The notes beneath the pieces are model-generated. The model worked only from the letters and a program-made list of their open reading frames with translations, was not told the origin of the DNA and did not search any database. DNA of 15,925 nucleotides from Candidatus Micrarchaeota archaeon (lineage in GTDB: Archaea; Micrarchaeota; Micrarchaeia; Norongarragalinales; SBBD01), in contig JBBSVW010000035.1 of NCBI GenBank assembly GCA_038046605.1, positions 1-15,925 on the forward strand. Reading direction: 5' to 3'. The translations under genes and the position numbers were made by a program. Below are positions 176 to 15,925 of the stretch, piece by piece (position 1 is the stretch's first letter; the number at the start of each line of letters is the position of its first letter).

Positions 176-201
176 AATGTTTAGCCTTTGAAAAATATTA
201 A
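176..201 (-). promoter_or_regulatory. AT-rich spacer: possible oligo-T terminator and/or TATA-like element for the next gene
   Basis: Minus strand reads TTAATATTTTTCAAAGGCTAAACATT-ATG: a T5 run just after the stop, and TTAATAT 20-26 nt before the ATG at 175. Confidence 0.25.
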
Positions 202-3200
202 CGTTTGCTACCAAAACTCTTGAGCCTTGAGGCAACCGATTCGAGGTATGTGTCGGACATCCTGAAAAGCCCTTGCTTTAATTTATCGCTTGCGATTTTT
301 AGCTCGAGCTCCACATCATAGGTGTCAACCCCTTTTGCCTTGAGCGCATCAATCTGGACCCTTGCAGCTTCCACCTTTTGCTGTATCCCGGTTATTTGCT
401 GGAGCTCTTCTTCAGTCAAGGCAAATGTCGAGTGGAGAAGGGGCCGAAATGCGACAAACCACGGCTTGCCTTCATTGTACTCGGGGTTTTGCACAAGGCC
501 AGTCCCGATGGTGAGCTTGGTTATCTTGCTGGCATATTCGCCGCCATACTTTGTCTTGACCCTGCCAATATCCCCTTCGTATTTTGTGCGGAGCTGGATT
601 TCATTTGCAATGTTGGCACGAACGGCGCCCTTGAAATCAAGGAGCACTTGCGAAATCATGAACATTCCAAGACCCCACTTACGGAACTCGCGGTAGCCCC
701 TTTCAAGTTGGGCGTAGGCGCCCTTGCCCCCATATTTGGGAAGCAGGCGATGGACTTCATCGTAAACTATTAGGAGCTTAAGCTCCTTTGATTCAAGGGG
801 CCTCATATCGAAAACTGCCTGGATGGAGCGCTTGACAAAGCCGTCGAGCTGCGCCGGCTGCAATTTGTTCATGACAAACACGGTGATTTCGCCGGGGATC
901 AGGTACTTCTTGTATTCTATTGGCTGGTTGGGATCTAGGACATTTATGATGTTTGTCTTGTAGCTTCTTGCATCCTCGGGCTTCATTGCAAATTTGGGAT
1001 AGAGGGCAAGCATTTGCTTATCCTTGTTTGGCCGGATGTATCCCGTCCACTGCGCGGTTGGATCGAACACCACAACTGGCACATTGCGCTTGAGCAATTC
1101 CTCGACAACGACCTGCGCTGAAACCGATTTTCCAGAGCCCGTGCCTCCCGCCGCAATTGAGTGTGTCTGCAATTTATCCATATCAAAGTACGCCGTCACA
1201 TCGGTTTCGGCAATGCGGCCAACTGGTATTGCACGCGGACCTGCCTGCGGGAGCTTCTTATAGTCCATCGGGATGATGTAGCGCTGGCCTTTGAGCTTGC
1301 GCTGCTGGTAAACCGCATATGCGCGCTTTCCCCCGACAAAGAGGATGATTCCAAGGATCAGGGCGTATGTAAGCCAGCTTGAAGTGACGGTTTGCACAAC
1401 CAAACCTGTTACGGAAGTTCCGGTGACTTCGACGGAATCGGACCCAATTGAAACTTTTCTTCCTTCTAGGTAGGTTGCAGTTACCTGGAAGATGTATATT
1501 CCCGGCTCAGCATCACCCGGAACCTTTGCGGTTTGCGATCTTGTGACAAGATCAGAAATCTGCACGGTTTCAGAGGAGGTGTAAATTGTCTTGTCCTCTG
1601 AGAGGGTCTTTAGGGTGTATTGAAGCGAAACATCCGTTGCCGCCTCCGCCTCGCCGCGGTTTACGATAGTTATTTCAGCGCGGACATTATCTCCAGGCCG
1701 GACAACTTTAGAGAGCACAGAAACCTTCACATCAAGGAGCGGGTCTTTTGATTTTTCTATGCGCAAGGTAACCGGAGTTATCTTCACGACATTTCCAAGC
1801 TTCACAATTATGTCGGCAGTGTAAATTCCGGGGAATGTGGTATCTGGGACGCTGATTAATACCTTGATGGATTCAAGCGTCCGGCTTTTCACAGTTGTTG
1901 TTGGCTTTTCTATGCTAAGGAAGGCTGCGGCATCGCCTTCGATAATAAAGCTTCCAAGCAGATCAACATCAAGGTTGTTCACCAAATCGATTACCTGGGT
2001 GCGCTTATCCCCGGGCTTAAGTGTTAGGTCAATTGAGCTCGACCGCACTTCAGGGGGCCCAATCCGGCCGCCATCGCCTCCTGCGCCGCCCGAACCATTG
2101 CCTGCGCCGGCGCCTCCAGCCCCGCCTGCGCCAGTTGATGGGGTTGCGGTTCCTCCGGCACCTGCACTCGAACCGCCGCCTCCTGCACCAGCGCCAGTGC
2201 CTGCGCCCCCACCACCAATTGTTGCGGTTGCAGATGGCGTTGCGGTAACAGTCACATTCGGAGCGGGGCAATCCGTTGAGCAAACAGCAGTGCTCTCACC
2301 AGTTGATGCCTCGCAAATTCCATTCCCGCAAACATATTCCGCAAGTGCGTAGGCCATGCTCGCATTTGTTGAGGTATAGGTGATGATCCCTTTTGATGGG
2401 TCCCTAAAGGCGCTTTGGCGCGTCCAGTTAAGCGTGCATCCAGACATTGGCGAATAGGCGGAACAGCTATAGATGCCCAAGTTGCTTTCGAGGGAATACG
2501 GAAGGCCAAGGTAGTTGAATGAGACATTTGATGAAGTGTAGGTCAGGTTCACATAGTATATTACACCTGCAAGCGCGCCAGCGCCAATCCTGGTTGTTGG
2601 AATTAATCCAAAGCGCAGTGGATCTGCATAATCCATTGTGAGCGGGACCTGGGTTAGGAGAAGGGATTTACTTTGGAGGCTCGCGTTAACATAATAGGTG
2701 TCGTTGAAAACCGTTTGGTTGTAGTGCCCGGAGGAATTTGCTTGGAAGGCATATAATTGCGAGCTTAGGTTTGCTGATGAATAGAGCCTAAATTCGGGCT
2801 GTAGGGCAGGCTGGGAAATCTGCTCCAAATCAAGCGCCCTTCCGGCAAAAACTATTGCGCTTCGCACAAGGAATGAGCCGGAGGTGTAATTGCAGTTGCT
2901 TGATGCGTCGCACACCTTGGCATTGACGGTATAATTGCCGATTTGGGATGTGTTTTGGAACGAATTCAAATAAAGGTATGAATCGCCGCTCCTTGATGCG
3001 AAGTTGAAAACGATTGTGCTAACGCTCCCGGATGGATATGTGATGTTTGCAACAACCGCGGAGGAATTCTGGAACATCGTGCCCGTGTCGTTTGCATTGA
3101 TTGTGATGTTTATCTGGCTGCTCTTGATCACAGTACTTGCGGAGGAGTATGAAACCTGGGGAGGCGTCGTGTCGGTGTAGCCGATTGCACGGATCTCGAT

Positions 3201-6200
3201 TTTTGTCAGGTTAAGGCGCCTTGCCAGGTCGAAGAATGTCACATTCAAGTCATAACTTTTGCCGGTTGCAAGGGAGGGCGCGGTGAAATTAAGGGTCCAC
3301 AGGCCCGATGAAAATGTTTGGGAGGTTAAGGAAACAAGGGTCTTGGTGGAGCTATCCTGGAGAGTCACATTGAAACTTACATTTGCGGATAAGGCGCCAG
3401 CACCATAGGTCGCATTCACGACAACAGAAAGCGCATTGCCCGGATTCACATTAAGCACCGGCGCCGATTCAGTTGGGCTTAAAATAATTCCGTAGAACGG
3501 ATGCACCGTCAGGTTGATGAACGTGGCCTTTTCGGGAGGCGTTGCGGTTGCATTTTGCGTGGTGGCATTGCCAACATAATTGGTAAGAACGGAAACGGAT
3601 GGGGCTGAATAGTTTATCTGGAACCCACTAGAGCCAAGTGCGGATATGAGAAGGCTTGAGGCATTGAACACAAGGTAGGGCGAAACGTTGCCTTGGCCAA
3701 TAATTGCTACATAAAGGATCTGGTTCCCGATGTTTGTTACGGATGCGACGGTTATTTCGCCGCTTTGACCGGTTATGACTTCCGCATTGATCGACGAGGG
3801 GGATTGCGTCCAGCTAAGGTTTGACGGCACGGTAATGGAAAATATGGCGGTATCTCCGGTGTTGTTCGAGCCGTTTGCAACAATTGTTCCGGTGTAAACT
3901 CCGGATGCAAAGCCGGAGGTTACGGTAACTGTTGCGTTAACCTGCTGCGAAGAACCAGTTGGCAGGAAGGATATCGAGGATGGCAAAAATGAAACCGTGA
4001 ACGAAGAGCAGGCACTTCCGCTTGCGCAGCTATAGGTGATGCCGGTTAGGTTTGTTGTTCCATCTGAAATTATGGTAAATGGTACGGTTCCGGAAGTGCC
4101 AGCCGAGATGATTTGGGAAATTGTTGTTTCATTTATATTCAATACCGCATTTTGCCCAACAATTATTTGCAGCTGTGTGATGTTCGAACTCGCCGTCCCA
4201 TCCAGGTTGGTCCAATTAATCGTAAGGTTTGCAACGTATGCTCCAGCAGGCGTTCCTGCATTTGCAACAAAGGTAATTGCAAGGGTAGAATTGGATGAAG
4301 CATAAATCGTACCCCGAACGCCTGAATTGGGGGATACGGAAAAGTTTTGCGGCATCGAGATATTGAAAGTGGAATTGAGAGCGCGGGCATAGCCTAAATT
4401 GTTTATTGATAGGTTTATTGTCGTATTGGCATCGGAGGATAAGGTCACATTCGAAATGGTTATTTGGGGGCTTTGGAAGGATAGGTTGGTTTGGGAATAG
4501 GCTGTAATATTGAATTCGGATGAGCAATCGACCAGGTTGCTTGTGTCATTTGCGCAAACCTTAATGGAATGATTTCCGGAAATTGTGGAATTGTAAACGC
4601 CGGAATATATTGTGCTATTCTTTGTTAGGAATTGCTGCACGGTCGAACCGTTTCTTGTCACATTTATCCAAACGGATGAAACGCCAAAATTGTCCGTGAC
4701 ATTTGCGGAAATCGTCGAATTGCCGAAAGTTATTTCAAAATTCGCCGGAATGCCAGTGGCATTTTGTATTATTGGGGGGAGATCGGTAATGTTTAGGCCG
4801 ATGCTAATGGTTTGGGATGAGGGGGTCCCATTGCTCGAGAGCAGTGTTATGGTTCCGGGGTAAAAGCCAGGGGTCGTGCTTGCTGGAACGGAATAGCTCA
4901 CATTGACAACGCGCGTTATTTGCTTATCTATATCAACTGCAAGAACCGAAAAGCCATCGAAAAGTAGGTAGGGTGAGGCTATGCCGGAGGTTGCAAAGGT
5001 GAAGGTGGATTTAATGTTCCCGTTGTTTGTGACGGAGATATTTCCAAATATTGCAGAAGTGTTCGGCGCAATGGTCAGGTTTCCAAAAGTGGATGGCACC
5101 CTAACCCACGAGCCATTGGAGGGGATCGTGAAATTGACAAGTACCGTATCCAAAAGTCCGCTCGCATTTGCCTGGATGAATGTCCAGAAGGATCCGGGAG
5201 GCTGGGTTGGAGGTATGGAAATAGCTATGTTGGATGTGAAATTATCACCCGCATTAAGAAGGCCTTGGAAGCTTGGTGAAATGGATAGGATGCACGAAGG
5301 GCAAAGCGTCGCTATATCGCCGCCTATAGCGGTCAATTGCACATTGAGCAGGCGCTCATTTCCAGTTGCCGCAGATGTTATGTTTGAAACGACTCCGGAA
5401 AATCCGCTTTGGACATCCAATGCCATTGGAGAGTTGAGAATGTCAACAATTGGATTTGCGGATACCACTATCGTCGAGGTATTTTGATTTGTGGAAATCG
5501 TAAGATCGGCATTTTTCCAGCTGGCATTCACAACCAGGGCAATTAATTTTTGCGCAGTCCTAGGAAGCACGGTAACGGTTACAGCCCAGGCGCAGGTTTG
5601 ATTCGGCTGAAGCGTTCCACACGCCTCGAATGCATCGTTGTAGGAAACCTCGGATGATGAATCATCATATATGGTAAGGTTGGTTCCGTACATGGGAACG
5701 GGCCCGCGGTTTGTCAGGTTTAGCGCAATTGCAAAGGTATAGCCAGATGATTGGGTTATGCCTGAAGCGATAACCGATATCGGCAGTAGGAAAACCGTGG
5801 AATTGGTTTTTCCAAGGGAAACAAAATAGCCCGCAAAGGAATAATTCGCATTGTTTTCCGGGGGCGCATCTATTGCAACAATCGTGACATTATAGGTGCC
5901 ATTGATTGTGGGTGTGTAATTTACGGCGTAGGTTCCGTTTACAATTTGCGGCATTGTAACGTTTTGTATTGTGCCATTTGGCCAGTTGATGGAGGCATAA
6001 ACGCTGCTAATTGAAGTGTCATCTGAAACCGCTGCGGTAATCTGCGTAAAATTGAGGTTGGTTTCAAGGGATTGATTTGGGATGATGGACGAATTGTGTA
6101 TTATGGGGGCGCGAGTGTCAAGTTCGGTCACATATACCGTCGATGAGTTGATGTTTGCACTGTAGAATTTCGGCTGGTCGTCATAAATTACGCATGTGAA

Positions 6201-8342
6201 CGATACAAGGCCTTTGACTGTTGGGGAAAAGGTGAAGTTGGTGTAGCCCGATGAATTTGTGGTTAAGTTTTGTGTCAGGTTCCCTCCGGAATAATTGTAT
6301 GAGAACGTAATGTTGTAACTTCCAACCCCTACGCTGCTATCGTGGTCAAATACACGGCAGGATACGGAAACATTCAGGGGATAGGTTAGGGATGTGCCAT
6401 TGGCCGGGTAGACAACGGATACATCGGATAAACCGGAAATGCGGATCAGGGCGCTTTTTATATCAGTATCGTAGAAGGATTTTGATGAGGCCGCGGTGAA
6501 ATTCCTATAGCCCGTTGTTTGCGTGATCAGGGGGAGGGCAACCGGCGCGGTATTTGAGGTTGTGGTCGAAATTTGGCCCGTTTCATTCGTCCAAACAACA
6601 GTTAGGGCAATTGTATTCCTGTTTTCATCCAAAACAGTGGCTGCAAGATCGGCCGATTGGGTCTTGCTGTAGAATGAGCCGTTTAGGGGCGCAGTTATAT
6701 TCGAAACCAAAATACCGTTAACAGTTATTGTGGTGTAGTTGGTATCCGAATCCTCATTGCCGGATTTTGTTGCGTTCATGTGGAGAACGTAGGTGCTAGG
6801 GGTTGCATTCTCATTTGGGTTGAAGTAAACCGAGCAGTAGCCCTGTGAATTAGTCGTGCAATTGGATAGGAGGGAATAAGTTGAATTATATAGCCAAACA
6901 GCGGCGCTTGCGGCCGAGCCAATATTTGCATCTTTTACGTGGATTGTGATGTTGCTTTGGTTTGGCGCAAAGGAATTGTTCCGGTATATGGAGGGGTAGT
7001 CTGGGGAAATCGAATCAATCACAAGCTGCCTTCTGATAATGATTGTGATATTGGCTGAATCCGAGGAAGTATTGTAGTAGAGGTAGGAATTATTCAGTAT
7101 TGCGCAGGAGATGTCATATGAGCCAGCGCCATCTGATGAGGTGGCCCATTGCCAGGTGGTTGAGCCATTTGATGAGGCATTTGAATTTTGCTGCAGGGTG
7201 CCATTCTTGAAGAAACTCACGGGATAGTTTGTAATGTTGGCTTGGGTGTCATTGTCCGCAACACCGCATATTACATCCACAATGGTTCCCGAAACGATCT
7301 GGGAGCCATTGGAGGGCGAATAAATCAATGGCCTGCTCCAGCCGTGAATGTATAGAGGGGTGGAATTTGTCCCATTGTCAAAATAGTTACGGGAAGCATT
7401 CGTATTGATCGTGGTTAGGCCCAGCTTGTATTTCGGGGGAACGGTCCAATTGGCGGAATAGTTCCTTGCAAGAAGAGCAAAGGACTCATTGTACCAATCC
7501 ACATTGGCATCGTTTATCGAAACAGAGCAATCATCAATCACCTGCGTAATGAAGCTTCTGTTGTAATTTCGCTGGGCAACCGCATTTGCAAAATTGGGAA
7601 GGATTGCCGTTTGCAGCTGGCCGTAAACGGTCAGGGTCGTATTGCTGGAGTTGACGGTTCTGTAGCAGCTATCCGTTGTCCGGGCGTACCAATATTGAAC
7701 CGAAGCATTTGTGGTGCAGGCGGGATCGTGCGTAGTTTGGCAATAGCCGCTGCTTGAACTGCAGCTGTAATTCACATCATAGAGGGAATTGTTCCTAGTA
7801 ACAAAGATCGTCGCATTAGTGGAATTGGGATAAATGCCATAATCCGTATCGAAAATCCTGACCTTTAGCAGGGCGGAATTCGAGCTGTTCCTCCTAACTG
7901 TAGCATTACTATCGGAATCAATCAAAACCGTGACATCGTCCACATCCATTATGAATGTTTTGTTTGAGGTATTTGCAGTGAACCCGAATTGGTCTGTTGT
8001 TGAGAAGTAATAAAAGTTGGGCCCAATATCTGCACAGGTAAAGTGGGTTTGGAAATCGGTGGAGGTATTCTGGCCCCCGATTGTGGTGACATTTCGGATG
8101 TCAACTTGGGTATAATTCACCCCATTTAGGCTCTTCCAAACGCTTACAGTGTTGATGTTTTGATCCTGGTCGGTGATGTCGACATGGAATGTGTAAAGGG
8201 CGCCCCATCCATCGCTGGTTGGAGTTACAAAATCATTTGAGAGCGTTGGCGATGACCCAAGGAAGAAAGCCTGCGATTTTACAGTGGAATTCGAGAGGTA
8301 GTAGGATTTGGAGACATCAATTGTGGCATTGTAATAGCCCAT
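198..8342 (-). CDS. C-terminal part of the giant surface protein: Ig-like repeats, Cys-rich motif, Gly linker, TM helix and HerA/DUF87-like ATPase (frame open up to 8471)
   Basis: 2714-aa ORF with abundant N-x-S/T sequons, one hydrophobic helix, Walker A GGTGSGKS and Walker B LLIVYDEVH; ends at TAA 198..200. The Met at 8342 lies mid-repeat, with no signal peptide and no evident Shine-Dalgarno sequence. Confidence 0.9.
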   Translation of the reverse strand: MGYYNATIDVSKSYYLSNSTVKSQAFFLGSSPTLSNDFVTPTSDGWGALYTFHVDITDQDQNINTVSVWKSLNGVNYTQVDIRNVTTIGGQNTSTDFQTHFTCADIGPNFYYFSTTDQFGFTANTSNKTFIMDVDDVTVLIDSDSNATVRRNSSNSALLKVRIFDTDYGIYPNSTNATIFVTRNNSLYDVNYSCSSSSGYCQTTHDPACTTNASVQYWYARTTDSCYRTVNSSNTTLTVYGQLQTAILPNFANAVAQRNYNRSFITQVIDDCSVSINDANVDWYNESFALLARNYSANWTVPPKYKLGLTTINTNASRNYFDNGTNSTPLYIHGWSRPLIYSPSNGSQIVSGTIVDVICGVADNDTQANITNYPVSFFKNGTLQQNSNASSNGSTTWQWATSSDGAGSYDISCAILNNSYLYYNTSSDSANITIIIRRQLVIDSISPDYPSIYRNNSFAPNQSNITIHVKDANIGSAASAAVWLYNSTYSLLSNCTTNSQGYCSVYFNPNENATPSTYVLHMNATKSGNEDSDTNYTTITVNGILVSNITAPLNGSFYSKTQSADLAATVLDENRNTIALTVVWTNETGQISTTTSNTAPVALPLITQTTGYRNFTAASSKSFYDTDIKSALIRISGLSDVSVVYPANGTSLTYPLNVSVSCRVFDHDSSVGVGSYNITFSYNYSGGNLTQNLTTNSSGYTNFTFSPTVKGLVSFTCVIYDDQPKFYSANINSSTVYVTELDTRAPIIHNSSIIPNQSLETNLNFTQITAAVSDDTSISSVYASINWPNGTIQNVTMPQIVNGTYAVNYTPTINGTYNVTIVAIDAPPENNANYSFAGYFVSLGKTNSTVFLLPISVIASGITQSSGYTFAIALNLTNRGPVPMYGTNLTIYDDSSSEVSYNDAFEACGTLQPNQTCAWAVTVTVLPRTAQKLIALVVNASWKNADLTISTNQNTSTIVVSANPIVDILNSPMALDVQSGFSGVVSNITSAATGNERLLNVQLTAIGGDIATLCPSCILSISPSFQGLLNAGDNFTSNIAISIPPTQPPGSFWTFIQANASGLLDTVLVNFTIPSNGSWVRVPSTFGNLTIAPNTSAIFGNISVTNNGNIKSTFTFATSGIASPYLLFDGFSVLAVDIDKQITRVVNVSYSVPASTTPGFYPGTITLLSSNGTPSSQTISIGLNITDLPPIIQNATGIPANFEITFGNSTISANVTDNFGVSSVWINVTRNGSTVQQFLTKNSTIYSGVYNSTISGNHSIKVCANDTSNLVDCSSEFNITAYSQTNLSFQSPQITISNVTLSSDANTTINLSINNLGYARALNSTFNISMPQNFSVSPNSGVRGTIYASSNSTLAITFVANAGTPAGAYVANLTINWTNLDGTASSNITQLQIIVGQNAVLNINETTISQIISAGTSGTVPFTIISDGTTNLTGITYSCASGSACSSFTVSFLPSSISFLPTGSSQQVNATVTVTSGFASGVYTGTIVANGSNNTGDTAIFSITVPSNLSWTQSPSSINAEVITGQSGEITVASVTNIGNQILYVAIIGQGNVSPYLVFNASSLLISALGSSGFQINYSAPSVSVLTNYVGNATTQNATATPPEKATFINLTVHPFYGIILSPTESAPVLNVNPGNALSVVVNATYGAGALSANVSFNVTLQDSSTKTLVSLTSQTFSSGLWTLNFTAPSLATGKSYDLNVTFFDLARRLNLTKIEIRAIGYTDTTPPQVSYSSASTVIKSSQINITINANDTGTMFQNSSAVVANITYPSGSVSTIVFNFASRSGDSYLYLNSFQNTSQIGNYTVNAKVCDASSNCNYTSGSFLVRSAIVFAGRALDLEQISQPALQPEFRLYSSANLSSQLYAFQANSSGHYNQTVFNDTYYVNASLQSKSLLLTQVPLTMDYADPLRFGLIPTTRIGAGALAGVIYYVNLTYTSSNVSFNYLGLPYSLESNLGIYSCSAYSPMSGCTLNWTRQSAFRDPSKGIITYTSTNASMAYALAEYVCGNGICEASTGESTAVCSTDCPAPNVTVTATPSATATIGGGGAGTGAGAGGGGSSAGAGGTATPSTGAGGAGGAGAGNGSGGAGGDGGRIGPPEVRSSSIDLTLKPGDKRTQVIDLVNNLDVDLLGSFIIEGDAAAFLSIEKPTTTVKSRTLESIKVLISVPDTTFPGIYTADIIVKLGNVVKITPVTLRIEKSKDPLLDVKVSVLSKVVRPGDNVRAEITIVNRGEAEAATDVSLQYTLKTLSEDKTIYTSSETVQISDLVTRSQTAKVPGDAEPGIYIFQVTATYLEGRKVSIGSDSVEVTGTSVTGLVVQTVTSSWLTYALILGIILFVGGKRAYAVYQQRKLKGQRYIIPMDYKKLPQAGPRAIPVGRIAETDVTAYFDMDKLQTHSIAAGGTGSGKSVSAQVVVEELLKRNVPVVVFDPTAQWTGYIRPNKDKQMLALYPKFAMKPEDARSYKTNIINVLDPNQPIEYKKYLIPGEITVFVMNKLQPAQLDGFVKRSIQAVFDMRPLESKELKLLIVYDEVHRLLPKYGGKGAYAQLERGYREFRKWGLGMFMISQVLLDFKGAVRANIANEIQLRTKYEGDIGRVKTKYGGEYASKITKLTIGTGLVQNPEYNEGKPWFVAFRPLLHSTFALTEEELQQITGIQQKVEAARVQIDALKAKGVDTYDVELELKIASDKLKQGLFRMSDTYLESVASRLKSFGSKR
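201..404 (-). other. C-terminal amphipathic helical / coiled-coil tail
   Basis: LTEEELQQITGIQQKVEAARVQIDALKAKGVDTYDVELELKIASDKLKQGLFRMSDTYLESVASRLK: charged helical pattern, no prolines. Confidence 0.6.
405..1230 (-). other. HerA/FtsK-superfamily P-loop ATPase domain (DUF87 / HerA-like)
   Basis: HSIAAGGTGSGKS (Walker A, 1125..1148), VVVFDP strand, LLIVYDEVH (Walker B, 750..776), REFRKWG arginine-finger motif (672..692) followed by MFMISQ. This motif order is characteristic of HerA/VirB4/TrwB-type ATPases. Boundaries are approximate. Confidence 0.9.
1329..1376 (-). other. Single transmembrane helix
   Basis: WLTYALILGIILFVGG followed by basic KRAY..QQRKLK; the positive-inside rule puts the ATPase in the cytoplasm. 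Confidence 0.85.
2067..2216 (-). repeat. Gly/Ala-rich low-complexity flexible linker (GC-rich cryptic repeats)
   Basis: GGGGAGTGAGAGGGGSSAGAGGTATPSTGAGGAGGAGAGNGSGGAGGDGG; recurrent cctgcgcc / cctgcac motifs on the + strand. Confidence 0.9.
2268..2330 (-). other. Cys-rich motif CGNGICE-x4-E-x4-C-x2-DC
   Basis: CGNGICEASTGESTAVCSTDC, a four-Cys CG(N/D)GxC-type module of the kind seen in archaeal surface proteins and myxobacterial cysteine-rich repeats. Confidence 0.75.
3501..6119 (-). repeat. Second, older tandem duplication: a ~430-445-aa multi-Ig module x2
   Basis: DTRAPII...ITAAVSDD...WKNAD...FTIPSNGSW...SVTNNGN (starts 6119) parallels DLPPII...ISANVTDN...WTNLD...ITVPSNLSW...SVTNIGN (starts 4784); offset 1335 nt. 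Confidence 0.8.
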
Positions 8343-8477
8343 GGGCTGCGAGCTTGATGGCCAGGTGCAGTTGTATGTGCCCCCGCCTGAAAGTATGTCA
8401 GTGCATGATTTGTCGCCGCCTACATTGGCCCTAACTTTGAAGGTGGTTGTTGCACTTGCAACAAGTGAACATTAATC

Positions 8478-11400
8478 TTAAAGGGTGGCATTGATCGGCA
8501 CATTGTCACCCCTAAGGAAACCGTTTCCATTAGGATAATTTATGAACGGATAGAGGGGCGCATTGACATCAACGGAATAATTACTGGAATTTGAGTTCTT
8601 GTAGCAGGTGTTGTCGATTATCCCCCCCTTCCACCTTTGGGTGCCGGTTAAGTAGGAGCAGCTGGGATCGAAATTAAGGTTTATGTAGCTGCTGGAATTT
8701 GTCGAAATGGACGACCCGTTGTCATAAGTTGAACCATTGGTTGTGACCCATATGGTTGAATTCCAACCAGAGCCTATCGATTCGTTTTTATCCGAGTCGG
8801 TTGCAAGAAGCGAAAGTGATCTTTGGGATGAGCCGTTTCGAAGGACTGTTGATCCATCCCCAAATGCCAACGAAACGGAAATGTCATCCGCTTCCTGCGT
8901 GAAATTGCCAGTTGCATTTTCCTGGTAGGTTCGCGCATCTATAGCTTCAAACCTAAAGTTCCAAGCGCCCAAATCGGCGCAGGAGAAATTGCCAGAATTG
9001 AACGTTAGGTTGACGATTTGGTTTGAGGGGGATGAAACTGTTTTGGCATCGCGCGCAGAGCCCCAGGATGCTGCGGTTGTGCGCTTGGCATAAAGCCTGA
9101 TGGTTACGCTATCTGCATCATCATCGTTAAGTACCACGGAGAATGGGAATGTTTCCCCCCAGCCAGCAAGGGTTTTAAGCGCGGTTTGGTTAGTCATCGC
9201 AGGCCTTGTTTCGATAAATAAGCTATCTGCAAGCACATAGGTATCATTGGTGTTATAGAAGCTCTTTGAGGAATTCATTGCAAGGTTGTACCATTGGTAG
9301 AGCAGATTGGTTGTGTTGAAGGTGCATTGGTATGCCCCACCAACCGGATTTGAAACTGGCGAACATGCATATGGCATTCCGGTCGAATTGTGGATCGGGT
9401 TTAGGGTTACTGATGCGCTACTAATGTCAAGGCCGCAATCATCAGCAACCGCAGATGAGATTGTTACATTGGTGCCCTTGAGAACTTGGGACCCCTGGGG
9501 AGAGGAGATTGAATTTTGCAGTTCACCATACAAGGTCAAATTCAGGAAATTGCCAGGGGCGGTTACGTTTGTTGATTTATAGCATACATCACCGATGATG
9601 CCAGCGGTCCAATTCTGGCGCCCAACCAGATAGTTGCAATTGGAATCAAAATTGAGGGCAAGGTGGCCAGATGCATTTGTTTGGGTGCTATTTGAAGAAT
9701 ACGATACCCCATTGGTTGTTATCCAATACGTGCCATTGACTCCGCTTGGCACATAGGAGGAATTATCAGAATTATACACCCGAATGGCAAGTGGCCAAAG
9801 CGTTGGGCCCGTCCTATTTAGCGAAGTATTATTGCCATATATGTGCGAAACTGAAATGTCGTTTGCCTCAATTTGGTAGCCGGTTGCAACGGAGGTGTTG
9901 AACCTGTTTGTGCCATCGTAAATATTGAAGTAGAAATTGGTGGTGGCACTTATATCACCGCAGTTAAATGCCGAGACATTGATTATGCAAGTGCCAACGC
10001 CGCCAGCAATTGTCATATTGCCGCGGCTCACATTGGTTGAGCCACTGTTTACTGATGTATATAGCGTGCAGGTGACATTGTCATTTTGGGGATCCGAAAC
10101 GGGGATTGAAAAGCCAAATACCTCGCTCCAGCCGCCAAGTGTGGGCGTGACATTTTGAGTGCCTATTGCGGGGGCGGTGTTGTTGAAATATGACCAATTA
10201 GTGAAAATAGTTGTGTTGCTTAGGTAATTTGTTAGGGTCGAATTGACGTGGATGCTCCAGTTGCCGCCCTGGTGATTGGATGTATTTAAAGTGCAATTGA
10301 AGATGCTTCCGCTGACATTGCTTACTGGGGAGCACACTTCGGAAACTCCAAAGGGCGAAACGATTTGCATCCCAACTGTTGCATCCGATCTTGGGATGGC
10401 GCATTCGTCCGTGGCATTTGCACTGATTGTTAGATTAGAGCCTACAGGGATGCTTGCCTGGAAGGGCGGGTAAACTATATTGTTCCTCATCTGCCCCCTA
10501 ATTGAAAACGAGCGGGTTGAATCGTTAACATCCTGGTAGCAACTATTGCCAAGGGTCCCTGCCTGGAAGGTTTGCGCACCCGCAGAATATGCGCAAGAGG
10601 GGTTGAAGAAATCAAATGCGAAGCCATTTGCATCGGTTTGGACTATGGTACCAGAATCCTGGGATGAACCATCCATTGTCATCCAATATGTCACATTAAT
10701 GCCGATGCCAACATATGTGTTCATGTGATTGTCGAACACGCGAACCCGGAATGTGCCGTTGCTGTTGCCATTGCGGTCAATTGTTATGCCCGTGCCGGTC
10801 CCAAATTGGGTTTGCACGAGCTCTTTTGCTATGGTAAAGCTTGATTCATCCGATTCATTGGTATTGTTGTTGCTTGCATCCGTCGCATTGAATTTAAAGT
10901 AATTCGTGCCAATGTCGGCGCAGGTGAACCTGTGCTTGAATGACACCGTGGTCGGATTCAGGTAGGTGCTGGTTGTTTGATTGTAAAGGGCGTATGATCC
11001 GGCAAGCCCGACTTTTTTCCAGAAATTCACGGTAACAACATCCCCCTCAATATCATTTGCCGTAACGGAAAAAGTATAGAGGTTGCCCCAATCATCAGAA
11101 TTGTCATCAACAGCAGGGCTGGTTAGGGCGGGCCTTGCCGTCAAAGTGAAAGCGCTGGAATTCGTATTTGCGGAAACATTATGGAAACTCCTGGAGGAAT
11201 TCATGGTTACATTGTACGCGCCTACTGCAAGCCCAGCGCTATCCACATCAGGGATAGTGCAGTTGTAATAGCCAGTGTTTTCATCCCTAATTGGACTGCA
11301 GCTATATGTGGATCCAGATCCGCTTGTTAGCCGGGCGCTGAAAGTAACCGTTGAGGAGTTGAGGTAATTATTGCATTCGTCCTGGACAATGCCCCTAAGG

Positions 11401-14400
11401 GTTATGTTTTGGCCGCGGAAATATTTCTGACCAGATGGCGCCGTTATTGAGGCATTTAGGTCCGCCGTGACATTGAAATCAAATGACGAGGTATTTGCAG
11501 CCTTGTAGAAGGTGCTTTCAAAAATCGCGCCAAACCATGTCTGCTGCCCTGGAACATATGTGCAATCAGGATCAAAATCGGTCTTGTTCAGGTATCCGGA
11601 TGGATCTGTGAAGAGGTCAAAATAAGCGTAACTGGAGCCGTTGAGGGTGGCATTTATCCTTCCTGGAGAGCCCCCGCCCAAATAAACAACACCCTGGGAA
11701 TCAATGTCCCTAGCCCTAATTGTGAACGCTGTTGTTAACGATCCTGGCCGGTATAATGATTGATTTGCGCCAAAGATGTAGTCAAGCCTCACATCGTTCT
11801 TCTCAACGGTATAGTTGCCAATTGCGGATTCCACCTGCGCGTCATTGTTTGTTGCATTCCATTTGAAGGAGCGGTTTCCCATTGCGCTTGAAACGCCATG
11901 GGAATAATTGAAGGTAATTGGCACGTTGCTTCCATTGACTGTAGTCGAATAGAGGTTTGTTTCCGTTCCGCCAACCTTCCTTTCCCATAGCCTTACTGTT
12001 ACGGAATCGCCATCTGGCTCGGTCGCATTTACCGAGAAGGTGAAATTCTCGCCCCAGCCGCCTACTAATGGGGTTACATTCACCTGCGTTAGGAGGGGAA
12101 TGCTTGAAATAATGAAGCTATTTGCAGTGGAATTGGTCCTGAAGTTATAATAGGTTTTTGTGGCATTTGTCGTGACATTGTAGGCGCCATATGCCTTGCC
12201 GGTCGTATTGATCGTGCAGTTGTAAATCCCGCCGCCTATTCCAGTTGTCTGTGAGCATAGGGCTGTGCCATCACTCCTGGAGGCATTGAAGGCAATGGTG
12301 CCGTTTAATAGCGGGGCGGAGCAATCGTCAGCTATATTCGAGCTTAATGTGATGTTTGTCCCTATTGCAACCCTTTGCGAATTGAGCGGATAGAGCTGGA
12401 TGATCCCGAACTCTCCAAGTATTGTTACGTTGAAATTGGAGGTATTTGTATTCGCATAGCAAACATCCGTAGTACCTCCTTTCCACAATTGCGTTCCAAC
12501 GGTGTAGCTGCATGAAGGATTGATCCAAAGGGATGCCCTTCCAGACGAGTTTGATTGGGTCTGGTTGCCAGAATCGTATTCGGATAGATTGGTCGTCACC
12601 CAGAACGTGACATTGGAATTATTCACATAAGTAAGGTTTTCGGCATCGTAAATGCGAAGTTCTAAATAGCCAGCTCCATTGCTCCGGTTGACCGTGGAGC
12701 CGTTGCCGAAGATGTGGGAAATGGTGACGTTGGTTGTTGTCAGGTTGGGGCCGTAAACCGGGGAGGTGTTGAACTGGTTTGCGGGCTCGCCGTTTATGAT
12801 GTGCCATTTGAACCAGTTATCCGTGCCCATCTCGCCGCAGGCAAGGCTGTAGACGGATATTGTGCAGTTGCCGGCGCCGGTTACTGTTGTGTTGCCCTTG
12901 TTTTGCCAAGAGGCCTGGTTGTCGGTTGAGACGAATAGGGTGCAGGTGACATTGTCAGAGGCATCATCCGTAATCTGGACGGAGTAATTGTAGGGCCTGC
13001 TCCAGCCGCCGGATGCCGGGTTGACGGATGCGTTTTGGGCAATTGGCGAAACGTCCTTGATGTAAAACCATTGGGAAAGGGTGGTGCTATTTGATGCGTA
13101 TAGGCCGGGGCGGCTAAGGTTCATTTGGATGCTATAGTTGCCCTGCACCTTGTTTGAGGAATCCCAGGTGCAGTTGTAAAAGCCCGCATTGCCGCCAGCT
13201 TCCGAAGCTACCGGGGCGCACGAGGTGGAGGTTGCATTGGGGGAGATGATTGTGACTACCGGGGTTACGTTTATTATCATGCCTTCAGCCGAGCAATCGG
13301 AAGTTGCGTTCAGCCGGAACAGTATTTGCTGGGATTTGTTGAAGTTCTGGTTGTAATATGGGTTTAGGAGGTTTGCCATCAGTTGGCCGGTGACATTCAA
13401 GGTGTAGTTTGTAAGGGCGGTGTTCTTGTAGCAGGTGTCATTGACAATCCCTCCCACCCATTTTTGCGTGCCGGTTGTGTAGGAACATGATGGGTTGAAA
13501 TAGTAGGAAGTATTGCCCGTTGAATCGGTAGCATTGAACGTGCCGCCGTCAAATACCACCCCATTTGTTGTTATGTAAAAAGTGGTATTGACATTTGAGC
13601 TCACATACGCATTGCTCTTGTCATTGTCCCTGACCCGTAATCGTAGTAGCCCAACAGTTCCGCCCTCCCTAAGTATGTTAATTCCAGAACCCGCATCTGA
13701 TTCCGTATCCGCATCGTCCTTTTCAATTGTGAAAGCACTGGAGGATAATTCCGTGCCAAAGCCCCATTGGTTTGTGGCGTTGAATTTCCATTGGCTGGTT
13801 GCGGAAGGGGTAATATCGCCGCATACGAATGTTTCGGCGTAGGATTTGGTCACGAAATCAACGCCGGTGCAGTTCTTGGTTTCGACTGGCGACCAATCAT
13901 ATGTGGAGTTTAGGCGCTTCCAAAGCGTGACGTTGAATGTGCCGCCATCGATTTGCCGGCAATCGACGGACCATGTGAAGGTTTCGCCCCAGCCGCCAAG
14001 CGCCTTGTCCAAGGAGGCTAGCTGGAGTTCTGGGCCGGCTACGAGTTGGAGGGCATTAACCTTGGTTGAATTTTGCTGGGCGTAGTAGGCCTTGTCGACC
14101 TGGGCGGTCAAATTGTAATAGCCAAATTCCTTTCCTGTTGAATCCCAGGAGAAGTTGTGGGTGCCATTTCCAAATATTGTAAAGCCCGAGCTTTCGGTGT
14201 AAGCGGTTGAACCCCTGAAATAGAGCACGGGGGTTGTGGAATTGACCGGGTTTAGGCATTCGTCGGTGACGTTGAAATCTACAGGCACCCTTGAGCCCCT
14301 TGTGTAATTTACACCTAGGGGCCGGGCAACTGCAACGGACATGTTCGTTTGCAGGGTTATGTTGTAGACGGAGGAATTGAATTCCTTATAGCAGCTGTTG

Positions 14401-15925
14401 GCAGTAGTTCCAATCTTCCAACCCTGCACTCCGGGCGCATAGCTGCAGGTGGGATCAATTGTGCTGTTGAAAAAGCCCGAGGATGTGGTGACACCGGTGC
14501 CGGTATCGTATTGGCTGCCATTGACCGTGACCCATCTAGTGCCGCTTGCAAGGCCCGTGCCGATAAGGGTATTTGCATTGTCTATATCCCTGACCTGGAC
14601 GGATAGTGTTGTGGATTGCGAGCCGTTCCTCCAAATGGTTTCACCGTCTCCCGAAATGTAGGTAATGTTGACATCGTCGCGCTCAATTGTGAAATTCATC
14701 GGGGTGAGGTTGGCCGTGAAATTCTCATCGGAGGCATTCCAGAAGAACTGCCAGCCGGCAATGTCGCCGCATGCAAAATTGCTCTTGGGGATTGAGAGCA
14801 TGGTGTTGTTGCAGTTGCTTGAGCAGGTACGGGTGGACACAATGGTCCAATCACCCGAGTAGCCCTGGCGGATGAAGAGATAGGCGGTGACAAGATCGTT
14901 GTCATCGTCGGTTACGGTAACATTGAAATTGAATGTTTCCTTCCAGCCTCCGGCATCCGATGTGTTGGAATCCTCATTTGATGTGTTGACGAATTGCACA
15001 ACAAGGGTGGGACCGGTCTGGATGCGGAAGATGTTGTTTGTCGTAAGGGAGTTGAAGTTGTGGAAGGGCTTTGATGAATTGGCGGTGACATTGTAGTAGC
15101 GTGCGGGCAACAAGGAGGTATTGAAGGAGCAATTGTATGATCCGGTTGTCTCATTGGTAACTGGAGAGCACGAATAGCCGCTTTGGCCCTGTTTGTAGGT
15201 CAGGTTCACCTGGGCATCTGTTAGGGGAATTAGGCATTCATCGGTAACATTGACCCGCAGGGTAACGTTTGAATTGCGCGGGTAGTTGGCGCCATTTGGG
15301 GAAAGTAGGGTGTTTTGGATATCGGCGTATATGCTGATGTTGAAATTTGAGGAATTGGTTTGGGTGTAGCAGCCATCAGTAATCCCGCCTTTCCAGGATT
15401 GTTTTGCTGCGCCATAGGAACATGATGGGTTGAAATAAACAGCGGCATGGCCGGAGGAATTGGATGAGGTTTGGTTGCCTGAATCGAAGGAAACCGCGTT
15501 CGCAGTAACCCAGAACGTGACATTGGAATTATTGACGTAGGTGAGGTTTTCGGCATCGTAAATGCGGATTGAGAAGTAAGCGCTTGCCTGGCTCCTGTTG
15601 ATTGAAGTCTCGTTGCCGAAGATATGGGAAATGGTTACGTTGGTTGTTGTCAGGTTGGGGCCGTAAACGGGCGAGGTGTTGAACTGGTTTGCGGGCTCGC
15701 CGTTTATGATGTGCCATTTGAAATAGTTGTCGGCCCCCATTTCGCCGCAGGAGAGGCTGTAAACTGAAATTGTGCAGTTGCCAGCGCCGGTTACTGTTGT
15801 GTTGCCCTTGTTTTGCCAGGTGGCCTGGTTGTCGGTTGAGACGAATAGGGTGCAGGTGACATTGTCGGCCGCATCATCCGTAATCTGGACGGAGTAATTG
15901 TAGGGCCTGCTCCAGCCGCCGGATG
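8478..15925 (-). CDS. N-terminal part (5'-partial) of the giant surface protein: tandem ~320-aa Cys-containing Ig-like repeat units
   Basis: The 2420-aa ORF extends without a stop to the window edge. Its listed Met (MGADNY) corresponds to the internal MGTDNW of a later repeat, so it is not the true start. Confidence 0.9.
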   Translation of the reverse strand, partial: SGGWSRPYNYSVQITDDAADNVTCTLFVSTDNQATWQNKGNTTVTGAGNCTISVYSLSCGEMGADNYFKWHIINGEPANQFNTSPVYGPNLTTTNVTISHIFGNETSINRSQASAYFSIRIYDAENLTYVNNSNVTFWVTANAVSFDSGNQTSSNSSGHAAVYFNPSCSYGAAKQSWKGGITDGCYTQTNSSNFNISIYADIQNTLLSPNGANYPRNSNVTLRVNVTDECLIPLTDAQVNLTYKQGQSGYSCSPVTNETTGSYNCSFNTSLLPARYYNVTANSSKPFHNFNSLTTNNIFRIQTGPTLVVQFVNTSNEDSNTSDAGGWKETFNFNVTVTDDDNDLVTAYLFIRQGYSGDWTIVSTRTCSSNCNNTMLSIPKSNFACGDIAGWQFFWNASDENFTANLTPMNFTIERDDVNITYISGDGETIWRNGSQSTTLSVQVRDIDNANTLIGTGLASGTRWVTVNGSQYDTGTGVTTSSGFFNSTIDPTCSYAPGVQGWKIGTTANSCYKEFNSSVYNITLQTNMSVAVARPLGVNYTRGSRVPVDFNVTDECLNPVNSTTPVLYFRGSTAYTESSGFTIFGNGTHNFSWDSTGKEFGYYNLTAQVDKAYYAQQNSTKVNALQLVAGPELQLASLDKALGGWGETFTWSVDCRQIDGGTFNVTLWKRLNSTYDWSPVETKNCTGVDFVTKSYAETFVCGDITPSATSQWKFNATNQWGFGTELSSSAFTIEKDDADTESDAGSGINILREGGTVGLLRLRVRDNDKSNAYVSSNVNTTFYITTNGVVFDGGTFNATDSTGNTSYYFNPSCSYTTGTQKWVGGIVNDTCYKNTALTNYTLNVTGQLMANLLNPYYNQNFNKSQQILFRLNATSDCSAEGMIINVTPVVTIISPNATSTSCAPVASEAGGNAGFYNCTWDSSNKVQGNYSIQMNLSRPGLYASNSTTLSQWFYIKDVSPIAQNASVNPASGGWSRPYNYSVQITDDASDNVTCTLFVSTDNQASWQNKGNTTVTGAGNCTISVYSLACGEMGTDNWFKWHIINGEPANQFNTSPVYGPNLTTTNVTISHIFGNGSTVNRSNGAGYLELRIYDAENLTYVNNSNVTFWVTTNLSEYDSGNQTQSNSSGRASLWINPSCSYTVGTQLWKGGTTDVCYANTNTSNFNVTILGEFGIIQLYPLNSQRVAIGTNITLSSNIADDCSAPLLNGTIAFNASRSDGTALCSQTTGIGGGIYNCTINTTGKAYGAYNVTTNATKTYYNFRTNSTANSFIISSIPLLTQVNVTPLVGGWGENFTFSVNATEPDGDSVTVRLWERKVGGTETNLYSTTVNGSNVPITFNYSHGVSSAMGNRSFKWNATNNDAQVESAIGNYTVEKNDVRLDYIFGANQSLYRPGSLTTAFTIRARDIDSQGVVYLGGGSPGRINATLNGSSYAYFDLFTDPSGYLNKTDFDPDCTYVPGQQTWFGAIFESTFYKAANTSSFDFNVTADLNASITAPSGQKYFRGQNITLRGIVQDECNNYLNSSTVTFSARLTSGSGSTYSCSPIRDENTGYYNCTIPDVDSAGLAVGAYNVTMNSSRSFHNVSANTNSSAFTLTARPALTSPAVDDNSDDWGNLYTFSVTANDIEGDVVTVNFWKKVGLAGSYALYNQTTSTYLNPTTVSFKHRFTCADIGTNYFKFNATDASNNNTNESDESSFTIAKELVQTQFGTGTGITIDRNGNSNGTFRVRVFDNHMNTYVGIGINVTYWMTMDGSSQDSGTIVQTDANGFAFDFFNPSCAYSAGAQTFQAGTLGNSCYQDVNDSTRSFSIRGQMRNNIVYPPFQASIPVGSNLTISANATDECAIPRSDATVGMQIVSPFGVSEVCSPVSNVSGSIFNCTLNTSNHQGGNWSIHVNSTLTNYLSNTTIFTNWSYFNNTAPAIGTQNVTPTLGGWSEVFGFSIPVSDPQNDNVTCTLYTSVNSGSTNVSRGNMTIAGGVGTCIINVSAFNCGDISATTNFYFNIYDGTNRFNTSVATGYQIEANDISVSHIYGNNTSLNRTGPTLWPLAIRVYNSDNSSYVPSGVNGTYWITTNGVSYSSNSTQTNASGHLALNFDSNCNYLVGRQNWTAGIIGDVCYKSTNVTAPGNFLNLTLYGELQNSISSPQGSQVLKGTNVTISSAVADDCGLDISSASVTLNPIHNSTGMPYACSPVSNPVGGAYQCTFNTTNLLYQWYNLAMNSSKSFYNTNDTYVLADSLFIETRPAMTNQTALKTLAGWGETFPFSVVLNDDDADSVTIRLYAKRTTAASWGSARDAKTVSSPSNQIVNLTFNSGNFSCADLGAWNFRFEAIDARTYQENATGNFTQEADDISVSLAFGDGSTVLRNGSSQRSLSLLATDSDKNESIGSGWNSTIWVTTNGSTYDNGSSISTNSSSYINLNFDPSCSYLTGTQRWKGGIIDNTCYKNSNSSNYSVDVNAPLYPFINYPNGNGFLRGDNVPINATL
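12598..13015. repeat. Near-identical DNA direct repeat, copy 1 (offset 2910 nt)
   Basis: 12701..13015 vs 15611..15925: 22 mismatches in 315 nt by hand count (~93%). 12598..12656 vs 15508..15566: 4 mismatches in 59 nt. Confidence 0.95.
15508..15925. repeat. Near-identical DNA direct repeat, copy 2 (runs off the window edge)
   Basis: Gap-free alignment to 12598..13015. Confidence 0.95.

What the first reader, a model, noticed from the sequence alone, without database searches (positions are those of the whole stretch)
8472..8480. Two in-frame TAA stops one codon apart (TAA-GAT-TAA) split an otherwise intact giant gene
Seen: CTT TAA GAT TAA TGT = L*D*C, where the other eight units read VTDEC, VTDEC, ATSDC, IADDC, VQDEC, ATDEC, VADDC and VIDDC. 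Each stop is one substitution from a fitting codon (GAA Glu for the second; e.g. CAA Gln for the first). The repeat spacing across the site (954 nt) equals that of the equivalent earlier unit, so an indel is unlikely, and there is no other lesion in ~5,240 codons. Inference: two independent nonsense mutations 6 nt apart are improbable, which points to one clustered event, a local base-calling error, or a selected truncation. A truncation would release an unanchored ectodomain and leave a TM-ATPase half with no signal peptide. Readthrough of two consecutive TAAs is the least likely explanation.
Basis: partly seen in the sequence, partly recalled or inferred. Interest (0 to 1): 0.8.

Follow-up and report, generated by a model that had tools for sequence, protein, structure and literature searches.

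The report
Assembly-private double stop in giant archaeal gene
The two stop codons are really in this deposited contig, but every other copy of the gene that could be checked reads ordinary Tyr and Glu codons there, so the split is most likely a low-coverage sequencing or assembly error (or a rare broken variant) in an intact giant surface-protein gene of a tiny symbiotic archaeon.

Summary
On the minus strand, window 8480-8472 reads TAA-GAT-TAA, and these are the only internal stops in 5,242 in-frame codons. The stops are in the public record, because its 2,481/2,420-aa and 2,714-aa products are on file.

They are private to this assembly.
- Independent contigs from 3 of 3 runs that cover the site (two studies) read TAC-GAT-GAA, i.e. 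Tyr-Asp-Glu.
- A sibling protein of 5,180 aa matches 5,176 of 5,180 residues without a gap and has Y and E at the two positions.
- 6 of 6 aligned homologues have an aromatic residue or Arg, then Asp, then Asp/Glu, then Cys.
- The orthologous stretch is uninterrupted in every relative that has one, including a 12,373-codon open frame in the same genus.

TAA is an ordinary terminator in this genome and ends this gene too. The record name is tagged at about 7x coverage.

My reading: base-call or assembly error about 0.62, real rare null allele about 0.30, programmed split or readthrough under 0.03.

The gene is a DPANN (labelled Micrarchaeota) giant surface protein with a transmembrane helix and a cytosolic HerA/VirB4-like ATPase. 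It has the same architecture as the published nanohaloarchaeal "SPEARE" giants.

The parts
8472..8480 (-). TAA-GAT-TAA, the two in-frame stops (codons 2482 and 2484 of the window's frame). Other assemblies read TAC-GAT-GAA here (+ strand 8474 C instead of A, 8478 G instead of T).
8481..15923 (-). Upstream open frame, 2,481 codons. It is part of the ectodomain, made of repeats of about 322 aa rich in N-x-S/T sequons and Cys. It is open at the window end and continues past a 100-N scaffold gap.
198..8471 (-). Downstream open frame, 2,757 codons plus the terminal TAA (198-200). It holds the rest of the ectodomain, the TM helix and the cytosolic ATPase.
8340..8342 (-). First possible start codon (ATG) after the stops, 43 codons downstream. 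A product starting here (MGYYNATIDV...) shows no hydrophobic leader by eye.
4212..4433 (-). NPCBM_assoc (NEW3) type beta-sandwich domain in the ectodomain (E 1.1e-08, 35.5 bits against cut-off 24.4).
2058..2258 (-). Gly/Ala/Ser/Thr-rich low-complexity linker near the membrane.
1323..1382 (-). Single hydrophobic transmembrane segment (SSWLTYALILGIILFVGG) followed by a basic stretch (KRAYAVYQQRKLKGQR). The topology is N-out, C-in.
   Evidence: topology inferred from 0 sequons in 411 C-terminal residues against 6.2-6.6 per 100 upstream
354..1256 (-). Cytosolic P-loop ATPase of the HerA/FtsK/VirB4 kind. Pfam DUF87 matches at 1053-1229, Walker A (GGTGSGKS) is at 1125-1148 and Walker B (LLIVYDEVHRL) at 744-776. 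The domain borders are approximate.
201..428 (-). C-terminal helical tail. It looks coiled-coil-like by eye, which was not tested. It is conserved in a 7,378-aa protein labelled Nanohaloarchaea.

Best explanation
The gene is intact in the organism. The TAA-GAT-TAA pair is private to this one low-coverage assembly and is most likely a local base-call or consensus error. At two positions 4 nt apart (+ strand 8474 and 8478) the contig has A and T where the population has C and G, which turns TAC (Tyr) and GAA (Glu) into TAA. The gene encodes one chain of more than 10,000 residues. It has a heavily N-glycosylated, Cys-containing ectodomain of repeats of about 322 aa, one TM helix, and a cytosolic HerA/VirB4-like ATPase with a helical tail. 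This is the DPANN 'giant surface protein' architecture proposed in the literature to bind the host cell and couple that binding to an ATP-driven transfer step. Shown here: the stops are absent from every other copy examined, and the domain order. Inferred: that the cause is error rather than a rare allele, the topology, and the function.
For: (1): of 4 runs laid, 3 cover the site (X1, X2 of study P1; X4 of study P2), and 3 of 3 read 8474 A>C and 8478 T>G, giving TAC-GAT-GAA. X1's contig differs from the window in only these 2 of 1,201 letters. X4 carries 2 further SNPs in 266 nt, so it is a separate strain. (2): the same 90% cluster holds a 5,180-aa protein from a 42,965-nt contig with 5,176 of 5,180 residues identical, 0 gaps, Y at 2482 and E at 2484. 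(3): 6 of 6 aligned homologues have Y/R/F, then D, then D/E, then C. The closest (P0014, 71% identical) reads LYDEC. (4): 12 of 31 genomes have a match. Every listed match outside G000 has no stop inside, including the best orthologous ones (G006 64% identical in a 12,373-aa open frame, G001 71%, G004 57%, G009 45%, G016 43%, G007 43%, G011 42%). (5): TAA ends 373 of 1,059 open frames of 200 aa or more, and ends this gene, so there is no recoding. (6): the source record's name carries a coverage tag of about 7. X2's contigs break at the site, with one ending at 8483 and the next starting at 8479, which fits a local shortage of clean spanning reads. (7) Both changes are of the A/C and G/T kind, which four-colour Illumina base calling confuses most (recalled knowledge, not a call). 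Several miscalls in one poor read tail would explain the clustering. (8): the C-terminal TM-ATPase module is 55% identical over 437 aa to that of a protein labelled Nanohaloarchaea, against 34-38% for the ectodomain. The ATPase is therefore the most constrained part, and a stop that uncouples it should be selected against.
Against: No raw reads could be examined; all four runs were served as contigs, which drop minority variants. X2's second contig starts exactly one base after variant position 8478. That is also what a graph branch caused by a second allele in that run would give, so some reads may really carry the stop allele. Two random miscalls both making stops is itself a coincidence of a few per thousand (my estimate). 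Selection of this window by a reader who was looking for stops offsets that. X1 and X2 may be the very data the contig was built from, so they are not fully independent of it. A third in-frame TAA sits 70 nt from the scaffold's end, and I could not check it against any other copy.
Confidence: 0.62

Rival explanations
1. A real but rare null allele. A subpopulation in the sampled groundwater carries a double G:C>T:A change made in one clustered mutational event, and the assembler happened to follow it. In those cells the first ~7,900+ residues would be made without anchor or ATPase, and the rest would lack an export signal. The allele would therefore be a loss of function, either tolerated briefly or favoured (for instance to shed a surface receptor).
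For:: in run X2 one contig ends at 8483 and the next begins at 8479, directly after variant position 8478, as expected at a branch between two alleles. The two contigs also differ in depth (6 against 8.69); the stops are in the deposited record. Both changes are the same class of transversion, which fits one event. Giant surface genes are organism-specific, variable regions in nanohaloarchaea (passage in PMC10266531).
Against: 3 of 3 covering runs give the sense allele as their contig sequence. The sibling assembly is intact. There are no other differences in 1,201 nt and only 2 other residue differences in 5,180, so there is no sign of a diverged strain or of decay downstream. One stop would be enough for a knock-out. 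The ATPase module is strongly conserved.
Confidence: 0.3
2. A functional split or programmed readthrough. The organism either makes two proteins on purpose, or reads TAA through or recodes it at this site.
For: Both halves are long and otherwise undamaged. There is a further in-frame TAA near the scaffold's end.
Against: The stops are absent from the 99.9% identical sibling, from 3 of 3 covering runs and from all relatives with a match. TAA terminates 373 of 1,059 long open frames and this gene itself. The first start codon after the stops is 43 codons away, against 0-19 codons at the 30 other same-frame junctions in the genome. The downstream product would begin inside a glycosylated ectodomain repeat and shows no leader by eye.
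Confidence: 0.03
3. Targeted hypervariation (a diversity-generating retroelement or similar), or a mis-join through a paralogous repeat unit, wrote the letters.
For: DPANN genomes are known to carry such retroelements (recalled, not from a call). The gene is highly repetitive.
Against:: no other copy of the 36-nt stretch around the site exists in the genome at up to 8 mismatches, and every 13-mer spanning both variant positions is unique. So there is no template repeat and no paralogous donor. Only two positions differ, and the adenines around them are unchanged.
Confidence: 0.02

Closest known systems
Giant membrane-anchored surface proteins of Nanohaloarchaeota ('SPEARE' proteins; SVXNc_0300, 9,409 aa, and BNXNv_0298, 8,880 aa), as described in passages of PMC10266531, which cites Hamm et al. 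2019 (not read)
   Same: The order of parts is the same: a very long ectodomain of tandem repeats, one TM helix, a cytosolic P-loop ATPase of the VirB4/TraG/HerA kind, then a helical tail. The TM-ATPase-tail module is 55% identical over 437 aa to a 7,378-aa DUF87 protein labelled Nanohaloarchaea. The organisms are small-genome DPANN archaea.
   Different: The nearest named homologues here are labelled Micrarchaeota. The repeat unit is about 322 aa with conserved Cys and a D-[DE]-C motif, not a simple 100-aa Ig unit. The gene is longer: at least 10,679 codons here and 12,373 in a congener. In the congener G006 the two ORFs downstream have no Pfam family, so the second VirB4/TraG ATPase reported next to the nanohaloarchaeal genes was not found there. 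I did not compare directly with SVXNc_0300 itself.
HerA/FtsK-superfamily ATPases (Pfam DUF87, PF01935; solved HerA-type hexamers such as 8wiv and 4d2i)
   Same: The DUF87 match is above Pfam's cut-off (43.5 against 23.2 bits). Walker A and Walker B motifs are present. There are weak but consistent matches to solved HerA-type chains (E 1.2e-05 to 8e-03).
   Different: Only the first 62 of 220 profile positions match. The domain is fused behind a TM helix to a giant ectodomain. No helicase or nuclease partner was examined.
Premature stop codons in draft metagenome-assembled genomes (assembly or base-call errors, or pseudogenes)
   Same: The stops are private to one low-coverage draft contig and absent from sibling assemblies and relatives.
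   Different: There are two stops one codon apart, which is unusual for either an error or a mutation.

Membership tests
DPANN giant surface protein with C-terminal ATPase (SPEARE type) | TM helix followed by a cytosolic VirB4/TraG/HerA-like P-loop ATPase at the C-terminus | tested here: met
   DUF87 E 5.3e-11; Walker A and B motifs; one hydrophobic segment just upstream; 0 sequons in the last 411 residues
DPANN giant surface protein with C-terminal ATPase (SPEARE type) | Very long ectodomain of tandem Ig-like or adhesin-like domains | tested here: inconclusive
   Nine repeats of about 322 aa in the window, with 6.2-6.6 N-x-S/T sequons per 100 residues. Only a sub-threshold Big_7 match (17 bits against cut-off 24.1) and one NPCBM_assoc match above cut-off. 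No structure was predicted.
DPANN giant surface protein with C-terminal ATPase (SPEARE type) | Sequence homology to a nanohaloarchaeal member | tested here: met
   55% identity over 437 aa of the TM-ATPase-tail module and 36% over the queried ectodomain region to P0002, a 7,378-aa protein labelled Nanohaloarchaea. The published SVXNc_0300 itself was not compared.
DPANN giant surface protein with C-terminal ATPase (SPEARE type) | N-terminal export signal | not testable with these tools
   The 5' end lies beyond the scaffold. In the congener G006 the 12,373-codon frame starts with about 70 cytosolic-looking residues and then a hydrophobic segment. The weak MazE/AbrB-like match is below cut-off (E 0.048).
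DPANN giant surface protein with C-terminal ATPase (SPEARE type) | Second VirB4/TraG-family ATPase gene immediately downstream (reported for the nanohaloarchaeal loci, PMC10266531) | tested here: not met
   The window ends 197 nt after the gene, so this was tested in congener G006. The next two ORFs (1,018 and 555 aa) have 0 Pfam families at E<=0.001. It is a neighbourhood trait, not part of the protein.
Programmed readthrough / stop-codon reassignment | The stop is conserved at the site in relatives, or the codon is not used as a terminator genome-wide | tested here: not met
   Sense codons in the sibling, in 3 of 3 covering runs and in all relatives with a match. TAA ends 373 of 1,059 long open frames.
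Split gene / established pseudogene | The lesion is shared by independent genomes of the lineage, or there is further decay downstream | tested here: not met
   No other stop or gap in 5,242 codons. The lesion is absent from the sibling assembly.
DGR variable region | A template repeat elsewhere in the genome that differs at adenines | tested here: not met
   No second copy of the 36-nt stretch at up to 8 mismatches in the 1.64-Mb draft, which is 90.7% complete

The most novel reading that the evidence does not exclude
The TAA pair is a real allele. One clustered double transversion knocked out the giant host-attachment and ATPase protein in part of a natural population of an episymbiotic archaeon, and those cells persist at a frequency high enough to be assembled. 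That would be a natural experiment on whether this protein is needed for the symbiotic life style.
Probability: 0.3. Interest if true: 0.3.

Novelty: not a real feature. Interest (0 to 1): 0.1.

Why it matters
The main value is as a correction. The public record annotates two proteins (2,481/2,420 aa and 2,714 aa) where the organism almost certainly has one. Because of the scaffold gap, the true gene is about twice as long again, at more than 10,600 codons, and a congener has 12,373 uninterrupted codons. Anyone counting 'truncated' or 'split' giant adhesins in DPANN MAGs should treat such lesions in ~7x contigs as unverified. If the allele were real, it would mark a natural knock-out of the presumed host-contact machine. 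That would be of moderate interest but would not be a new kind of biology.

Tried and rejected
- **RNA evidence:** no RNA holder was listed for the stretch, so nothing can be said about expression.
- **Run X6:** its contig covers only 7900-8049, not the site, so it gives no information.
- **Metagenome scan:** an exact 29-nt stretch next to the site found only the source record itself, L001. No further independent copy turned up in that collection.
not run. The sibling differs at 4 of 5,180 residues, so there has been no time for decay, and the next relatives are 57-71% identical in protein, where synonymous sites are saturated. The test has no power either way.
- **Genome-wide look for similar lesions:** 31 places have two open frames of at least 250 aa in one frame separated only by stops. 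At the 30 others a start codon follows within 0-19 codons, so they look like ordinary adjacent genes. This gave no sign of a general stop problem or of recoding.
- **Paralogous donor or DGR template:** none found.
- **The third in-frame TAA (C35:32338-32340):** a search for a near-identical longer protein covering it found only two homologues of 47-48% identity. Their alignments start after the site, and only proteins of 2,014-5,000 aa were searched. It remains unresolved.
- **Sibling of the upstream 5,350-aa product:** its cluster has 1 member.
- **Earlier notes of this scan:** none fitted.
- **PMC8784108:** the term search found nothing on giant proteins.
- **Supplements:** no supplementary files were consulted.

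Full report
**1. The observation**

The feature is on the minus strand. Window + strand 8472-8480 is TTAATCTTA, so the coding strand reads CTT TAA GAT TAA TGT. Translating 15923 to 198 in that frame gives 5,242 codons. The only stops are at codons 2482 and 2484 and the terminal TAA.

The interval into the affected unit is 966 nt, the same as the interval before it.

The stops are in the public record. Exact products of 2,714 aa, 2,481 aa and 2,420 aa from a 32,410-nt contig are on file.

**2. Setting**

- The window is the first 15,925 nt of scaffold C35 (32,410 nt) in a 1.64-Mb, 106-contig draft genome that is 90.7% complete.
- A 100-N gap follows the window directly. Beyond it the same strand stays open for another 5,437 codons, to within 73 nt of the scaffold's end.
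- The gene therefore has at least 10,679 codons, and its 5' end is missing.
- The nearest named homologues are labelled Candidatus Micrarchaeota, Aenigmatarchaeota, Nanohaloarchaea and Parvarchaeota, that is, DPANN archaea.
- The runs that hold the DNA are labelled groundwater metagenomes.

**3. Are the stops there in other copies?** No.

- *Contigs of other runs.* I laid contigs of four runs on 7900-9100. X6 does not reach the site. X1, X2 (study P1, two samples) and X4 (study P2) do, and 3 of 3 read C at 8474 and G at 8478, which gives TAC-GAT-GAA = Tyr-Asp-Glu. X1's 2,150-nt contig differs from the window in only these 2 of 1,201 letters. X4 has two further SNPs in 266 nt, so it is a slightly different strain that also has the sense codons.
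- *Sibling protein.* The 90%-identity cluster that holds both halves also holds a 5,180-aa protein from a 42,965-nt contig. It matches 5,176 of 5,180 residues with no gaps. Two of the four differences are Y at 2482 and E at 2484. The other two lie in a near-identical internal repeat.
- *Aligned homologues.* 6 of 6 have a sense residue at both positions: Y, R, R, Y, Y, F and then E, D, D, D, D, E. The closest (71% identical) reads INATLYDEC.
- *Related genomes.* Among 31 related genomes (G000 included), 12 have a match. Every listed match outside G000 has no stop inside (9 weaker matches were not listed). The orthologous stretch lies in open frames of 12,373 aa (G006, same genus, 64%), 2,908 aa (G001, 71%), 5,034 aa (G004, 57%) and others.

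**4. Is TAA read differently here?** No.

- TAA ends 373 of 1,059 open frames of at least 200 aa (TGA 421, TAG 265), and it ends this gene.
- Of 31 same-frame junctions between long open frames in the genome, the 30 others have a start codon 0-19 codons after the stop, as adjacent genes do. This one has none for 43 codons.

**5. Error or rare allele?** This is the one open point, because only contigs and not raw reads were served.

For error:
- The record's name tags the contig at about 7x coverage.
- The two changes lie 4 nt apart, as miscalls in a poor read tail do.
- Both are A/C or G/T confusions, the commonest four-colour Illumina miscalls (recalled, not from a call).
- There are no other differences from X1 or X2 in 1.2 kb.
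- A nonsense allele that uncouples the best-conserved module should be selected against. That module is 55% identical to a protein labelled Nanohaloarchaea, against 34-38% for the ectodomain.

For a real minority allele:
- In X2 one contig stops at 8483 and the next starts at 8479, one base after variant position 8478. A branch between two alleles would produce this, although a local lack of spanning reads would too.
- The depths of the two contigs differ (6 and 8.69).

I put error at about 0.62, a real rare allele at about 0.30, and everything else under 0.08. No paralogous donor or template repeat exists for the stop-bearing sequence.

**6. What the gene is**

- *Ectodomain.* It consists of repeats of about 322 aa with conserved Cys and 6.2-6.6 N-x-S/T sequons per 100 residues. 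It also has an NPCBM_assoc domain above cut-off and MG2- and Big_7-like matches below their cut-offs, followed by a Gly/Ala-rich linker.
- *Membrane and cytosolic part.* One hydrophobic segment (window 1323-1382) is followed by a basic stretch and then a cytosolic domain with no sequon in 411 residues. That domain carries DUF87/HerA (E 5.3e-11), Walker A at 1125-1148 and Walker B at 744-776, and ends in a helical tail.
- *Solved structures.* Relatives found by sequence are HerA-type ATPases (E 1.2e-05 and weaker).
- *Published parallel.* Passages of PMC10266531 describe the same order of parts for nanohaloarchaeal giant proteins of 8,880 and 9,409 aa: signal peptide, about 75 Ig-like domains, TM helix, VirB4/TraG-like ATPase, coiled coil. 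The authors propose that these proteins bind the host surface and drive secretion into it. By homology and architecture this gene is a member of that kind. The function remains the authors' hypothesis and is inferred here.

**7. Verdict**

It is best treated as an assembly-private lesion, most likely an artefact. Interest is low.

The side observations may be more useful than the stops: the true gene length, the gap placed at a near-identical repeat, and the unverified third TAA.

Noticed in passing
G000:C35:15926-32410 (just outside the window's high end): The window stops at a 100-N scaffold gap. The same strand stays open for 5,437 more codons beyond it, so the gene has at least 10,679 codons. 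The orthologous open frame in congener G006 has 12,373 codons without a stop, longer than the 9,409-aa protein called the largest in cultivated archaea in PMC10266531.
   Followed up: partly
G000:C35:32338-32340 (L010:3539-3541), minus strand: There is a third in-frame TAA, 70 nt from the scaffold's end, inside a Pro/Ser-rich run (…SISPSP*FSPEPSVNVSPSP…). In homologues this region is a continuous linker several hundred residues long that precedes a region aligning to proteins annotated as PEGA-domain. No other copy could be found to check it.
   Followed up: partly
window 12595-12894 and 15505-15804: A 300-nt direct repeat at 85% identity lies 2,910 nt (three units) apart, and the protein stretches GGWSRPYNYSVQITDD… are nearly identical. 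The scaffold gap sits right at one copy. The only two non-stop differences from the sibling protein (residues 989 and 1005) lie in the other copy, where the sibling carries the first copy's letters. This looks like repeat-driven assembly ambiguity.
   Followed up: partly
L008:1314-1613 (G006, start of the 12,373-codon frame): The congener's giant frame starts with about 45 residues that weakly resemble a MazE/AbrB-type fold (E 0.048, below cut-off), followed after about 25 more residues by a hydrophobic segment. The same start (MV[VL]IQRKKDQFTITLPKDVV…) is seen in P0022, labelled Micrarchaeota. A small cytosolic N-terminal domain therefore seems to precede the ectodomain.
   Followed up: partly
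window 201-1322 against 1383-15923: There are no N-x-S/T sequons and no Cys in the 411 C-terminal residues, against 6.2-6.6 sequons per 100 residues and 82 Cys in the ectodomain parts counted. This is a clean compositional mark of the membrane topology.
   Followed up: yes
G000 contigs C9, C7, C38 (outside the window): The same 1.64-Mb genome has further very long open frames: 5,337 aa on C9, 2,051 aa on C7 and 2,062 aa on C38. Their families were not examined.
   Followed up: no
L009:2386-7196 (G006, downstream of the giant gene): The two ORFs after the congener's giant gene (1,018 and 555 aa) have no Pfam family at E<=0.001. The second VirB4/TraG ATPase reported beside the nanohaloarchaeal giants was not seen.
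   Followed up: partly
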